64,000 nucleotides of DNA from NCBI RefSeq assembly GCF_003334815.1, contig NZ_QOWO01000007.1. One strand, 5' to 3'. The notes beneath the pieces were generated by a model, which saw nothing but the letters and a program-made list of their open reading frames with translations, searched no databases and had not been told where the DNA came from. The number at the start of each line of letters is the position of its first letter. Within the stretch, counting starts at the first letter, position 1. Both the position numbers and the translations under genes were made by a program. Shown here in pieces: positions 55,934-58,316 of the stretch. The DNA is from Escherichia coli. Lineage in GTDB: Bacteria; Pseudomonadota; Gammaproteobacteria; Enterobacterales; Enterobacteriaceae.

Positions 55934-56722
55934 TTATTTCAGTTCGAGTTCGTTCATTGCAGCAATGCTGAAACCGCCGTCAACGTGGACCACTTCACCG
56001 GAGATACCGGCAGAGAGATCGGAGCACAGGAATGCCGCAGAGTTACCCACATCTTCAATAGTAACGGTACGGCGAATCGGGGTAACGGCTTCGCAATGAG
56101 CCAGCATTTTGCGGAAGTCTTTGATACCGGAGGCCGCCAGAGTACGGATCGGACCAGCAGAGATGGCGTTAACACGCACACCTTCCGGACCCATCGCGTT
56201 CGCCATATAGCGCACGTTCGCTTCCAGAGACGCTTTTGCCAGACCCATAACGTTGTAGTTCGGGATAGCGCGCTCAGCGCCAAGGTAGGAAAGGGTCAGC
56301 AGGGCAGAACCCGGATTCAGCATGGAGCGGCAAGCTTTTGCCATTGCAACGAAGCTGTAGGAGCTGATGTCGTGGGCAATTTTGAAGCCTTCACGGGTAA
56401 CGGCGTTAACATAGTCACCATCCAGCTGATCGCCAGGTGCAAAACCAATAGAGTGTACGAAACCGTCAAATTTCGGCCAAACTTTCCCCAGTTCAGCGAA
56501 CATGGTGTCGATGCTGGCATCTTCTGCAACATCGCACTGCAGAACGATGTCAGAACCCAATTGAGCGGCAAATTCTTCTACGCGGCCTTTCAGTTTGTCG
56601 TTCTGGTAGGTGAATGCCAGTTCAGCTCCTTCGCGGTGCATCGCCTGAGCGATACCGTAGGCGATGGATAGTTTGCTGGCAACACCGGTTACCAGAATGC
56701 GCTTACCGGAAAGAAAACCCAT
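55934..56722 (-). CDS. fabI: enoyl-ACP reductase (NADH)
   Basis: 262 aa [28 protein letters not shown]. Confidence 0.98.
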
Positions 56723-56884
56723 AGCTTTAATCCTTATTGTTGATGCTTGTTGTGCCTGAAAATCAGGCGATTCGTCGTTTTAGTAAACAGTACGAACAGA
56801 TAAACGGTTATTATAATCAACCTGGCTGTGAGTAGCTATAGTTGCCAGGTCCGACCGGAGCAGGCTGCGGCAGGGGGGCGCTTT

Positions 56885-57146
56885 TCCCCTCACCCTAACC
56901 CTCTCCCCAGAGGGGCGAGGGGACCGTATTGTGCAAATATTGTTACCCCAGCAACAAACAGGCTCATACAGCCCCTAACCCTTTCATGGCGATGGCTGGG
57001 ACGGTTCAGACCTTGCCGAATATTCTCCAGCACCGTCTCCATGTTTTCACCACAACAGCTATTCGGCTCGGTCTGCCCCCTCGCTCTTTCAGGGAGAGGG
57101 TGACCGGCGGTTCAGTTCCTGCAGAATATTCTCCAGCACCGTCTCC
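56885..57146. repeat. GC-rich palindromic extragenic repeats with degenerate tandem copies of the ycjD 3' end
   Basis: imperfect palindromes ccctctcccc-agaggggcgagggg and ccctcgctctttcagggagaggg; 38-nt segment 57003-57040 matches 57109-57146 at 34/38 positions. Confidence 0.7.
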
Positions 57147-57442
57147 TCATTACAATCAATCTCGTTATTCCAGAAACGCAGCACGGTCCAGCCCTGCGAC
57201 TCAAGCCAGCTAGTGCGCCTGGAATCATAGGCAACTGCTAAATCATGCTGCCCACCATCCAGCTCAACGACTACACGCGCCGAGCAGCAAGCAAAATCGA
57301 GAATGTAGCTCCCCACTGGATGTTGACGGCGAAATTTGAAATCACTAAAACGTCGGCTGCGAAGATATCGCCAGAGCTTTCGTTCCTGCAAAGTGAGATT
57401 GCGTCTTAAATCACGCGCATTTGATTTAATTTTATCTATCAC
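57089..57442 (-). CDS. ycjD: DUF559 (Vsr-like endonuclease fold) protein
   Basis: 117-aa ORF MIDKIKSNARDLRRNLTLQERKLWRYLRSRRF. Confidence 0.85.
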   Translation of the reverse strand: MIDKIKSNARDLRRNLTLQERKLWRYLRSRRFSDFKFRRQHPVGSYILDFACCSARVVVELDGGQHDLAVAYDSRRTSWLESQGWTVLRFWNNEIDCNEETVLENILQELNRRSPSP

Positions 57443-57509
57443 CTCATTCTGACAAGATTTAATCTTTTGTCAGAATGAGGTGAATAATCTGGAAGGAGGA
57501 TTCAGAAAA

Positions 57510-58316
57510 TTAGCGATCTTTACGCCACGCATCCGCCGTCAATGCCTCGCCAAAATGACCGGCAATCAGCCGTTTGGTGAGTTCATGCAGCGGCGATGCC
57601 AGCACATCCGCGGTGCTGCCTCGCTCGACAACCTCGCCCTGATGCATCACCAGCACCTGGTCGCTAATGTGCTTCATCATTCCGATATGCTGGGTAACAT
57701 AAATATACGAAATGCCCTGTTTTTCCTGTAATTCCAGCATCAGATTAATCAACTGCGAACGCATCGACATATCCAGTGAAGCGAGGGCTTCATCGGCAAT
57801 AATGACTTTTGGGCGCAATATCAGCGCGCGCGCCAGACCCAGACGCTGTTTTTGTCCGGGTGCCAACATATGCGGATAGTAACTGACGTGATCCGGTAGC
57901 AGCCCAACCATACGCATCGTTTCAATAATCTGTTTGCGACGCTGTTCCGGTTCCAGGTCGGTGTTCAGGCGCAGTGGAAAATCCAGAATTTGCGAGATAC
58001 GTTGACGGGGATTCAACGAGGTCGAAGGATCCTGAAAAATCATGCGAATACGCTGACTGCGGAAGGAATAATCGCCAAAATGCAGTGGATGATCGTCAAT
58101 CAATAACTCGCCGCTGGTAGGCTCTATCATTCCCGCCAGCATTTTTGCCAGCGTGGATTTACCCGAACCATTCTCGCCAATAATCGCCAGTGTCTGGCCT
58201 TCACGTAGCGTAAAGCTCAAGGGTTTTACCGCTTCTACGGTCTGACGACGAAACCAGCCGGTCCGGTAGCGGAACGTTTTACTTAAATTACGCACTTCAA
58301 GCAGCGTTTCGATCAT
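57510..58316 (-). CDS. sapF: Sap ABC transporter ATP-binding protein
   Basis: 268 aa; Walker A GENGSGKST. Confidence 0.93.
   Translation of the reverse strand: MIETLLEVRNLSKTFRYRTGWFRRQTVEAVKPLSFTLREGQTLAIIGENGSGKSTLAKMLAGMIEPTSGELLIDDHPLHFGDYSFRSQRIRMIFQDPSTSLNPRQRISQILDFPLRLNTDLEPEQRRKQIIETMRMVGLLPDHVSYYPHMLAPGQKQRLGLARALILRPKVIIADEALASLDMSMRSQLINLMLELQEKQGISYIYVTQHIGMMKHISDQVLVMHQGEVVERGSTADVLASPLHELTKRLIAGHFGEALTADAWRKDR

What the first reader, a model, noticed from the sequence alone, without database searches (positions are those of the whole stretch)
56885..57146. Degenerate tandem copies of the ycjD 3' end inside GC-rich palindromic repeats (fabI-ycjD spacer)
The last ~13 codons of ycjD (57109-57146, ggttcagttcctgcagaatattctccagcaccgtctcc) recur about 100 bp downstream in the intergenic spacer (57003-57040) at 34/38 identity. 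Each copy is preceded by a similar C-rich/G-rich imperfect palindrome (ccccctcgctctttcagggagaggg vs cccctaaccctttcatggcgatggctggg). A third, more eroded unit lies at 56885-56960 around ccctctccccagaggggcgagggg. This looks like repeated duplication or gene conversion of a gene terminus together with an extragenic palindromic element; alternatively the repeat family supplies the C-terminus of this DUF559 gene. It is not a CRISPR array: the units are degenerate and have no unique spacers.
Basis: seen in the sequence. Interest (0 to 1): 0.4.

Follow-up and report, generated by a model that had tools for sequence, protein, structure and literature searches.

The report
BoxC repeats flank a DUF559 nuclease gene
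The duplicated tail of E. coli ycjD is real: it is the decayed right end of a nuclease gene whose relatives across bacteria are flanked by inverted BoxC-type repeats, which suggests an origin for a repeat family that has had none for 30 years.

Summary
57002-57040 and 57108-57146 match at 35/39 (best of 200 shuffles: 28), and each copy adjoins a degenerate palindrome.

The "third, eroded unit" is misread. 56886-56922 is an intact BoxC/PIT/TMECO element (Holder 2015, TMECO #9) in the opposite orientation, with no ycjD fragment.

ycjD's last codons and its stop lie inside a BoxC copy. Escherichia alleles form a series: one unit with an intact BoxC, then a tandem copy of [3' end + BoxC + flank], then 13-nt block losses, gene conversion between units, and a crossover deletion. 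About 91% of ycjD+ E. coli have two units. The repeated 3'-end sequence never occurs next to other BoxC copies.

I searched with a query that excluded the C-terminal tail and recovered 80 YcjD-like DUF559 genes from many phyla. 69 carry a BoxC-like hairpin at the 3' end, and 59 carry an inverted copy upstream. Four pairs are perfect inverted repeats. About a quarter sit in frame inside host genes such as HrpA, CarB and PriA.

Best reading: BoxC-type repeats are the terminal inverted repeats of a selfish element encoding a Vsr-like nuclease, and ycjD is a one-ended relic. I found no paper making this link. Mobility and cleavage are inferred, not shown.

The parts
56886..56922 (-). Canonical BoxC / PIT / TMECO element (type A with one mismatch; TMECO #9 of MG1655). 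It has a hairpin plus a third G-rich block and lies inverted relative to the two BoxC remnants next to ycjD.
   Evidence: Regex match. Identical to Holder 2015 Table 1 entry 9 at the K-12 coordinates. Dispersed in E. coli genomes. RNA fold -26.2 kcal/mol.
56923..56971 (-). Spacer between the solo BoxC and unit 2. It is also present in single-unit alleles. Its GCTGTATG motif recurs beside another K-12 BoxC (TMECO #17).
   Evidence: Alignment of alleles; K-12 BoxC loci.
56972..57001 (+). Unit 2 BoxC remnant. It has lost 13 nt and its stem has eroded relative to the L011 and L006 alleles, where it reads TCACTCTCACCCCAGCCATCGCCCTGAAAGGGTTAGGGGG in gene orientation.
   Evidence: The hairpin is no better than shuffles (z -0.43).
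57002..57042 (-). Unit 2: a non-functional copy of the last ~13 codons of ycjD (METVLENIRQGLN). It donated the conversion tract seen in the K-12-type gene, and it is the crossover partner in the deletion alleles.
   Evidence: 35/39 identity; allele comparison; fusion proteins P0004 and P0012.
57043..57075 (-). Outer flank of the unit 1 BoxC (…GACCGAGCC…). Several other K-12 BoxC copies have similar outer flanks, so I take it as part of the extended ~50-56-nt BoxC element.
   Evidence: Comparison by eye with the outer flanks at L093-L097. Similarity to ycjD coding sequence is inconclusive.
57076..57103 (+). Unit 1 BoxC remnant (CCCCCTCGCTC TTTCA GGGAGAGGG TGA). It has lost the third block plus its loop (13 nt) relative to L011. 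Its reverse complement encodes the ycjD codons S-P-S-P and the stop.
   Evidence: It still forms a hairpin of -23.3 kcal/mol, z -3.2.
57089..57442 (-). ycjD: a DUF559 (Vsr-like PD-(D/E)XK) nuclease-fold protein of 117 aa.
   Evidence: Pfam PF04480, E 1.5e-49. PDB 3HRL, E 1e-27. Model pLDDT 87.6; Foldseek hits are 3HRL, then the I-Bth0305I catalytic domain, then Vsr.
57108..57146 (-). Unit 1: the genuine 3' end of ycjD (ETVLENILQELNR), which is the repeated 39-mer.
57439..57485 (.). Near-perfect hairpin (sapF terminator) that overlaps the ycjD start codon. It marks the left edge of the variable ycjD segment. There is no upstream BoxC here.
   Evidence: RNA fold -28.1 kcal/mol, z -8.3.

Best explanation
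Shown. The region is the right end of a DUF559-plus-BoxC unit. ycjD runs into a BoxC element from that element's third-block side, so BoxC encodes the last codons and the stop. The ancestral state is kept in E. ruysiae and one divergent E. coli: ycjD, one intact reverse-complement BoxC, about 48 nt, then an inverted BoxC. In most E. coli a ~119-bp segment [last ~13 codons + BoxC + outer flank] is present twice in tandem. Since then the units have each lost one 13-nt block, exchanged sequence by gene conversion (altering two YcjD residues in K-12), and in some strains recombined to delete 106 bp, which gives YcjD a new tail.

Inferred. BoxC-type elements (a hairpin plus a third G-rich block) are the terminal inverted repeats of a selfish element whose only gene is this Vsr-like nuclease. 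Short BoxC pairs and solo BoxCs are its gene-less derivatives. The nuclease would nick or cut at or near these structured repeats and so promote copying, either by homing-like repair or by transposition. Because the repeats read as Pro/Ser/Gly-rich linkers in several frames, insertions inside genes are tolerated. E. coli ycjD has no left repeat and is an immobilised relic.
For: Local anatomy and the allelic series:
-.
- Two-unit form in about 3077 of 3379 ycjD+ genomes; the repeated 3'-end sequence (tested as a 47-nt query, 57104-57150) never occurs more than twice per genome.

The 80 DUF559 loci, found with a query that excluded the C-terminal tail:
- The C-rich orientation of the element starts within -20..+60 nt of the domain end 50 times. 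The G-rich orientation lies just upstream of the gene 51 times. There are no hits inside the gene.
- A relaxed hairpin is present at the 3' end in 69/80 loci and at the 5' end in 59/80. Only 2.8% of background windows have one.
- 38 loci have both repeats, 72-100% identical, and four pairs are perfect.
- Gaps between forward and reverse-complement elements are bimodal: 13 at 15-40 nt and 34 at 300-460 nt.

Other support:
- K-12 BoxC pairs have the same inward-facing arrangement, with 18-29-nt linkers.
- There is a precise 148-aa in-frame insertion in HrpA at E. coli A244-P245, flanked by perfect 35-nt repeats. CarB and PriA also carry in-frame insertions.
- One HrpA loop shows four insertion states in four related genomes.
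- Two copies in one MAG are homologous over a 484-nt stretch whose left edge coincides with the repeat, with unrelated flanks beyond it.
- Enterobacterial homologs sit at four or more different loci, always with the 3' BoxC.
- The closest characterised structure is a homing endonuclease catalytic domain.
- A DUF559 protein causes DNA damage in vivo in Caulobacter (PMC12907096).
- BoxC count is higher in ycjD+ E. coli: median 21 against 4.
Against: - No cleavage or mobility has been demonstrated for any YcjD-like protein.
- No clean filled-versus-empty site for the gene-bearing element was found, so no target-site duplication is defined. The only hint is 'AP' codons on both sides of the HrpA insertion.
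- E. coli ycjD lacks the upstream repeat.
- BoxC copies persist in the ~38% of E. coli that lack ycjD (13 in O157:H7).
- The copy-number difference is not corrected for phylogeny.
- The 80 loci are the best-scoring relatives of one clade (48-66% identity), not the whole DUF559 family.
- Maher and colleagues found no promoter, terminator or conjugation effect of PIT elements (reported in PMC4666352), which says nothing either way about mobility.
- The local tandem copy could have arisen by ordinary slippage, whatever BoxC's origin.
Confidence: 0.65

Rival explanations
1. The DUF559 gene is a homing endonuclease that parasitises pre-existing BoxC-pair MITEs by inserting into their linker. A different, unidentified enzyme moves the BoxC elements themselves.
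For: The fold is closest to the I-Bth0305I homing endonuclease. Gene-less pairs with 15-40-nt linkers exist in the same orientation. BoxC copies persist in E. coli that lack ycjD.
Against: No other candidate enzyme is consistently nearby. The repeat sequence varies between taxa together at both ends of the gene, as expected if the gene and its repeats evolve as one unit. This rival differs from the best explanation only in which enzyme moves the repeats.
Confidence: 0.2
2. This is ordinary slippage. The 106-119-bp tandem copy arose by replication slippage or unequal crossing-over at GC-rich palindromes. The BoxC next to ycjD is an incidental insertion with no functional tie to the gene.
For: Holder 2015 reports BoxC loci as unusually variable. 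The block losses of exactly 13 nt and the extra block in L012 look like slippage.
Against: Slippage may well explain how the local copy arose. It cannot explain why 69/80 independent DUF559 genes from many phyla end in the same kind of element in the same orientation, with an inverted partner upstream.
Confidence: 0.1
3. The BoxC-like repeats are cis-acting parts of the DUF559 gene, such as an mRNA-stabilising 3' hairpin, a terminator or an autoregulatory binding site. Alternatively YcjD is a host repair nuclease that processes such structures. In either case neither part is mobile.
For: A stable hairpin sits at the stop codon. The PSPRPSP tail is conserved in Enterobacteriaceae.
Against: These findings are hard to explain by gene-local regulation:
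- The inverted upstream copy.
- Perfect inverted repeat pairs.
- In-frame insertion of the whole unit inside HrpA, CarB and PriA.
- Multiple copies per genome.
- Many gene-less copies.
PIT elements also showed no terminator activity (reported in PMC4666352).
Confidence: 0.08

Closest known systems
BoxC / PIT / TMECO repeats of E. coli (Bachellier et al. 1990s; Hoyne & Maher 2000; Holder et al. 2015, PMC4666352)
   Same: 56886-56922 is listed there as TMECO #9. The two ycjD-proximal palindromes are truncated copies of the same motif. The inverted A+B pairs described there have the same arrangement as the repeats that flank DUF559 genes elsewhere.
   Different: Those papers report the elements as always intergenic, with no associated gene, no link to mobile elements and no known function. 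Here one copy encodes a gene's C-terminus. Relatives flank a nuclease gene and also occur in frame inside genes.
REP / REPIN elements and their RAYT transposases (PMC3116915, PMC3333891)
   Same: Both have a dispersed short palindromic repeat, inverted doublets as the likely mobile unit, and a usually single-copy gene flanked by the repeats that is proposed to act on them in trans.
   Different: The enzyme here is a Vsr-like PD-(D/E)XK nuclease, not an HUH Y1 transposase. The repeat has a hairpin plus a third strand-like block. The elements are frequently translated in frame. Activity is untested.
EDxHD homing endonucleases (I-Bth0305I, PDB 3R3P; PMC3239194) and Vsr
   Same: They share the catalytic fold (Foldseek E 1e-4, TM 0.66/0.74; profile E 0.047). 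They are grouped with DUF559 in the PD-(D/E)XK survey (PMC3424549). Both are selfish genes found inside host genes.
   Different: YcjD-like genes have no intron or intein around them and no NUMOD or HTH DNA-binding domain. They are flanked instead by inverted structured repeats and stay in the host protein as an inserted domain.
Rickettsia palindromic elements (RPEs) and other MITEs that insert in frame (reviewed in PMC10969869)
   Same: Both are short palindromic repeats inserted in frame into unrelated genes and translated as tolerated peptide insertions.
   Different: RPEs have no associated enzyme gene. The BoxC-type elements here have a gene-bearing form and are GC-rich triplex-type motifs.
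Classical IS/MITE pairs (terminal inverted repeats around a transposase, with gene-less derivatives)
   Same: Both have terminal inverted repeats of 32-39 nt, a single small gene between them, and short gene-less versions with the same repeat orientation.
   Different: No DDE, serine or tyrosine transposase is present. No target-site duplication has been established. The putative enzyme, about 110 aa, is far smaller than known transposases.

Membership tests
BoxC / TMECO | Motif CCCTCNCCC N3-6 GGGNGAGGG N3 GGGNGAGGG (Holder 2015) | tested here: met
   56887-56921, minus strand, matches exactly and is Table 1 entry #9. Units 1 and 2 in the window match only two of the three blocks. Their alleles in L011 and L006 keep all three.
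BoxC / TMECO | Dispersed, multi-copy in the genome | tested here: met
   Median 18 places per E. coli genome, up to 36. 23 copies in MG1655 according to PMC4666352.
BoxC / TMECO | Always intergenic (as described) | tested here: not met
   The unit 1 copy overlaps the last four codons and the stop of ycjD. Relatives are translated inside HrpA and other proteins.
DUF559 (PF04480) / Vsr-like PD-(D/E)XK nuclease | Pfam profile match | tested here: met
   E 1.5e-49 over residues 4-111.
DUF559 (PF04480) / Vsr-like PD-(D/E)XK nuclease | Vsr-like fold with conserved acidic and His residues | tested here: met
   AF2 model pLDDT 87.6. Foldseek hits are 3HRL, 3R3P and 1VSR. D49, E60, D62 and H66 are invariant in alignment A1.
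DUF559 (PF04480) / Vsr-like PD-(D/E)XK nuclease | Nuclease activity | not testable with these tools
   Only indirect support: Caulobacter DUF559 VsrA triggers SOS (PMC12907096).
Homing endonuclease gene | Resides at a precise site inside a host gene | tested here: met
   In relatives, not in the window. HrpA insertion at A244-P245; CarB and PriA.
Homing endonuclease gene | Embedded in a self-splicing intron or intein, or free-standing next to its target | tested here: not met
   No sign of an intein or intron in the sequences examined (not specifically searched). The ORF is continuous through the repeat-encoded linkers.
Homing endonuclease gene | Cleaves the empty allele | not testable with these tools
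   -
TIR transposon with MITE derivatives | Terminal inverted repeats flanking the gene | tested here: met
   38/80 loci under strict criteria, four perfect pairs. Not met in the E. coli window, where only the right end is present.
TIR transposon with MITE derivatives | Target-site duplication | tested here: inconclusive
   'AP' codons lie on both sides of the HrpA insertion. No empty site from a close relative was available.
TIR transposon with MITE derivatives | Gene-less copies with the same repeat arrangement | tested here: met
   13 pairs with 15-40-nt linkers in the 80 loci. K-12 pairs 1/2, 7/8, 10/11 and 12/13.
TIR transposon with MITE derivatives | Recognised transposase | tested here: not met
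   The only ORF between the repeats is the ~110-aa DUF559 domain.
REP / RAYT | REP consensus and a Y1 (HUH) transposase | tested here: not met
   The repeat is BoxC, not REP/PU. The gene is DUF559.
CRISPR array | Regularly spaced identical repeats with unique spacers | tested here: not met
   There are two diverged units plus one inverted element. TRF finds no array.

The most novel reading that the evidence does not exclude
The BoxC/PIT/TMECO repeats of E. coli, and the similar GC-rich 'hairpin plus third block' repeats found across bacteria, are the ends and gene-less derivatives of a previously unrecognised class of mobile element. Its only gene is a ~110-aa Vsr-like (DUF559) nuclease. These elements colonise intergenic DNA and also insert in frame into essential genes, where the repeats are translated as Pro/Ser/Gly linkers.
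Probability: 0.5. Interest if true: 0.8.

Novelty: new variant of a known kind. Interest (0 to 1): 0.62.

Why it matters
- BoxC (1990s), PIT (2000) and TMECO (2015) are names for one repeat family that has had no origin, no function and no associated gene.
- DUF559 is a large family with no assigned role, and YcjD is an uncharacterised K-12 protein.
- If the link holds, it would explain three things together:
  - why the repeat is so conserved across distant bacteria;
  - why its loci are unstable;
  - why many proteobacterial proteins carry odd PSPxPLP…GEG insertions.
- It would add a very small nuclease to the enzymes known to propagate repeats.
- It also gives a directly testable substrate for YcjD.
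- Practically, it warns annotators that ORFs such as 56890-57042, and the variable YcjD C-termini of 117-160 aa, are products of repeat turnover.

Tried and rejected
- Tandem Repeats Finder found nothing in 56700-57460.
- Rfam gave only chance miRNA-like hits on the sapF hairpin.
- The TRIP1 repeat paper is unrelated to this locus.
- The promoter and terminator scan gave no meaningful sites for the repeats.
- I asked whether the 35-nt stretch between the units derives from ycjD coding sequence. By eye the similarity is only ~50%, which is inconclusive. It looks more like the outer flank of other BoxC copies.
- I looked for a clean empty site for the Enterobacter-group DUF559 locus (downstream of hemW) in E. 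coli. The region is rearranged and gives no clean comparison.
- Plasmid carriage is rare: 35 of 72,556 records, many of them chromids or mislabelled chromosomes.
- SapF and FabI are not neighbours of the homologs in other genera, so the gene was not inherited at one fixed locus.
- I rejected CRISPR and REP/BIME readings.
- Literature searches on DUF559, COG2852/PF04480/EDxHD, TMECO/PIT and Vsr-like plus MITE terms found no paper linking the gene to the repeat. One search was badly designed and uninformative.

Full report
**Setting.** The window is E. coli (K-12-like). On the minus strand it carries yciW, fabI (55934-56722), ycjD (57089-57442), sapF (57510-58316) and sapD. The finding lies in the 366-nt fabI-ycjD spacer and the 3' end of ycjD.

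**Observation.** 57002-57040 and 57108-57146 are direct repeats, 35/39 identical and 106 nt apart. The adjoining palindromes 56972-56995 and 57077-57100 match at 18/24. In 200 dinucleotide shuffles of 56700-57460 the best 39-mer match was 28, mean 22.4. Read on the gene strand, copy 2 is in frame behind an ATG and produces the spurious 50-aa ORF 56890-57042. Tandem Repeats Finder and Rfam report nothing relevant.

**What the palindromes are.**
- 56886-56922 (minus strand) reads CCCCTCGCCCCTCTGGGGAGAGGGTTAGGGTGAGGGG. It fits the motif CCCTCNCCC-N3-6-GGGNGAGGG-N3-GGGNGAGGG. It is entry #9 in Table 1 of Holder et al. 2015 (PMC4666352) at the matching MG1655 coordinates.
- This is the element called BoxC in the 1990s and PIT in 2000. 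It is inverted relative to the other two and has no ycjD fragment next to it.
- The palindrome at the end of ycjD is a plus-strand BoxC cut short after its second block (CCCTCGCTC TTTCA GGGAGAGGG TGA). Its reverse complement supplies the codons S-P-S-P and the stop of ycjD.

**Allelic series in Escherichia**.
- E. ruysiae (L010) and a divergent E. coli (L009) have one unit. ycjD ends …LSPSPQPSP* inside an intact reverse-complement BoxC (CCCTCACCC CAG CCCTCTCCC TGAAG …). About 48 nt further on lies the inverted BoxC.
- L011 and L006 have two units, each with a nearly complete BoxC and an outer flank, roughly 119 nt per unit.
- The window and K-12 have two units that have each lost 13 nt (one C block plus its loop). 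L012 is intermediate and has an extra block in the solo BoxC.
- L007 and L008 have a crossover within the repeated 39-mer. It removes 106 bp and gives YcjD the copy-2 tail (P0004 and P0012, 147-148 aa).
- Gene conversion is visible. Unit 1 reads GAGGCGGTGCTGGAGATTATTC in L010, L011 and L012 but GAGACGGTGCTGGAGAATATTC in K-12. The two derived states are those of unit 2 in K-12 and L012. They change YcjD A102T and I106N. Unit 1 and unit 2 are about 79% alike in L011 and 90% alike in K-12.
- The 47-nt 3'-end sequence occurs in 3379 of 5426 complete E. coli genomes, at 6456 places and never more than twice per genome. So about 91% of ycjD+ genomes have two units, and the sequence is not attached to other BoxC copies.

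**The locus is dimorphic.** 3346 of 5426 genomes carry the ycjD segment. The rest, including O157:H7, carry a 7.9-kb five-gene efflux island between fabI and sapF. Homology breaks just left of the solo BoxC and at the sapF terminator hairpin.

**The wider pattern.**
- YcjD homologs in Enterobacter, Klebsiella, Kluyvera, Phytobacter and others end in …PSPRPSP*. This is the translation of CCC TCA CCC CGG CCC TCT CCC, the reverse complement of the two G blocks of a type B BoxC.
- To test this without circularity, I aligned nine DUF559 cores with their tails removed (A1) and scanned one genome per species. The scan patterns lay inside the domain. It returned 80 loci from Gamma-, Beta-, Alpha- and Deltaproteobacteria, Chloroflexi, Planctomycetota, Melainabacteria, Elusimicrobia and Armatimonadota.
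- Nearly all have a BoxC-like element at or just after the domain end. It is either translated (PSPRPSP*, SPSPQPSPQRGEGD*, PHPNPLPQAGEG…) or follows the stop directly.
- I then applied a strict three-block motif over 450,895 nt:
  - The C-rich orientation starts within -20..+60 nt of the domain end 50 times.
  - The G-rich orientation lies just upstream of the gene 51 times.
  - No hits fall inside the gene.
  - Background is about 0.1 hits per kb per strand.
- A relaxed hairpin test finds the element at the 3' end in 69/80 loci and upstream in 59/80. Only 2.8% of control windows have one.
- 38 loci have both repeats, 72-100% identical, and four pairs are perfect.
- Gaps between consecutive forward and reverse-complement elements are bimodal: 13 at 15-40 nt and 34 at 300-460 nt. 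Other orientations are diffuse.

**Comparison with K-12 BoxC pairs.** Pairs 1/2, 7/8, 10/11 and 12/13 have the same inward-facing arrangement, with 18-29-nt linkers. Pair 17/18 has the outward arrangement seen at ycjD.

**In-frame insertions.**
- In about 22 of the 80 loci the reading frame stays open for more than 100 codons upstream, and often continues downstream into a host gene.
- In L036, E. coli HrpA (PDB 6ZWX) aligns over residues 49-245 and 244-561 on either side of a 148-aa insertion. The flanking repeats are identical for 35 nt (CCCCTCGCCCTCTGGGAGAGGGGTTGGGGTGAGGG).
- CarB (L053) and PriA (L038) carry similar insertions.
- One HrpA loop shows four states in four related genomes: empty, one element, a pair, and a different element, all in frame.
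- Two copies in one deltaproteobacterial MAG are 87% identical over 484 nt. The left edge of that stretch coincides with the upstream repeat, the right edge runs ~60 nt past the downstream one, and the flanks beyond are unrelated.
- Within Enterobacteriaceae the gene sits at four or more different loci, always with its 3' BoxC and without an upstream one.

**The protein.**
- YcjD matches Pfam DUF559 at E 1.5e-49 and PDB 3HRL at E 1e-27.
- The A1 profile also reaches the homing endonuclease I-Bth0305I weakly, at E 0.047.
- An AlphaFold model (pLDDT 87.6) matches three structures, in order: 3HRL, the I-Bth0305I catalytic domain (E 1e-4, TM 0.66/0.74) and Vsr.
- The PD-(D/E)XK survey groups Vsr, DUF559 and I-Bth0305I together (PMC3424549). 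I-Bth0305I is a proven homing enzyme (PMC3239194).
- A Caulobacter DUF559 protein causes an SOS response in vivo (PMC12907096).

**BoxC load and ycjD.** I took an evenly spaced sample of genomes. 37 ycjD+ chromosomes had a median of 21 BoxC places (range 13-33). 21 ycjD- chromosomes had a median of 4 (range 1-19), Mann-Whitney p = 2e-9. This is not corrected for phylogeny. B2/ST131 strains have 1-3 places and O157:H7 has 13, so it is only suggestive.

**Literature.** None of the 25 held papers that mention DUF559 connects the gene family with these repeats. The same is true of the papers found with TMECO/PIT, COG2852/PF04480/EDxHD and Vsr-like plus MITE terms, and of the one MITE review I opened. 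Holder et al. state that the motif is always intergenic, is not associated with mobile elements, and has no common neighbouring gene. The library is incomplete, so an earlier report cannot be excluded.

**Interpretation.**
- Shown: the local structure is a duplicated, decaying right end [ycjD 3' end + BoxC] that undergoes conversion and deletion, next to an inverted solo BoxC.
- Shown: YcjD-clade genes are systematically bracketed by inverted BoxC-type repeats, occur as in-frame insertions, and have gene-less counterparts with the same geometry.
- Inferred: the repeats are the terminal inverted repeats of a selfish element propagated by the DUF559 nuclease, and E. coli ycjD is an immobilised one-ended copy.
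- Not established: cleavage, the mode of movement (homing-like repair or transposition), target-site duplication, and whether YcjD acts on the other BoxC copies of E. coli.

Noticed in passing
window ~56846-57495 versus L005 12186-20065 (O157:H7): The fabI-sapF slot is dimorphic in E. coli. About 62% of complete genomes hold the 650-bp ycjD/BoxC segment. About 38% hold a 7.9-kb efflux island instead (TetR, RND adaptor, RND permease, outer-membrane factor, MFS). The RND permease is frameshifted in the O157:H7 example.
   Followed up: partly
window 57439-57485: A near-perfect 20-bp hairpin (sapF terminator, -28.1 kcal/mol, z -8.3) overlaps the ycjD start. Its arms are conserved in the efflux-island allele but the loop differs. 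In the window and K-12 the usual ATG of ycjD (MDKIK…) is ATA, so the annotated start is the GTG inside the hairpin arm (MIDKIK…).
   Followed up: partly
L036 2286-6315; L032, L052, L055; L053; L038: In Gallionellaceae and Nitrosomonadales genomes the whole repeat-DUF559-repeat unit sits in frame inside hrpA, at the position of E. coli A244-P245. Other genomes carry it in carB and priA. It is unknown whether the host proteins stay functional with a ~150-aa nuclease domain inserted.
   Followed up: partly
L032 4107-4317, L052 4053-4182, L036 4032-4194, L055 4053-4143: One surface loop of HrpA shows four states in four related genomes: empty, one BoxC-like element, an inverted pair, and an unrelated short element. 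All are in frame, which suggests a permissive hot spot for these repeats.
   Followed up: yes
L021 (Methylococcus capsulatus), downstream of 3324: The DUF559 ORF runs into six or more tandem in-frame copies of a repeat translated as …NESPSPAGSGGE…, and then continues into a long host ORF. This is a local array of BoxC-like units.
   Followed up: no
L012 (E. coli RM13752), solo BoxC: The solo BoxC has an extra third-strand block (GGGTTAGGGTAAGGGTAAGGGG). This is block-wise slippage, the reverse of the 13-nt losses seen in K-12.
   Followed up: no
P0018 (Shigella dysenteriae), P0022: Further YcjD variants carry internal deletions that fuse mid-gene sequence to the unit 1 BoxC or to unit 2. The gene is probably inactivated in these.
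   Followed up: no
L093-L097 (K-12 BoxC pairs): The linkers of pairs 10/11, 12/13 and (reversed) 7/8 resemble each other (TAAWTDTTCGCRCCAGTGCYGGCCTGTTC). The outer flanks of many copies share G(Y)GC…GGTC next to the hairpin. The mobile unit is therefore probably longer than the 36-nt triplex motif, consistent with the original 56-bp BoxC.
   Followed up: partly
E. coli genomes sample: BoxC copy number varies from 1 to 36 between E. coli genomes and is lowest in B2/ST131-type strains, which also lack ycjD.
   Followed up: partly
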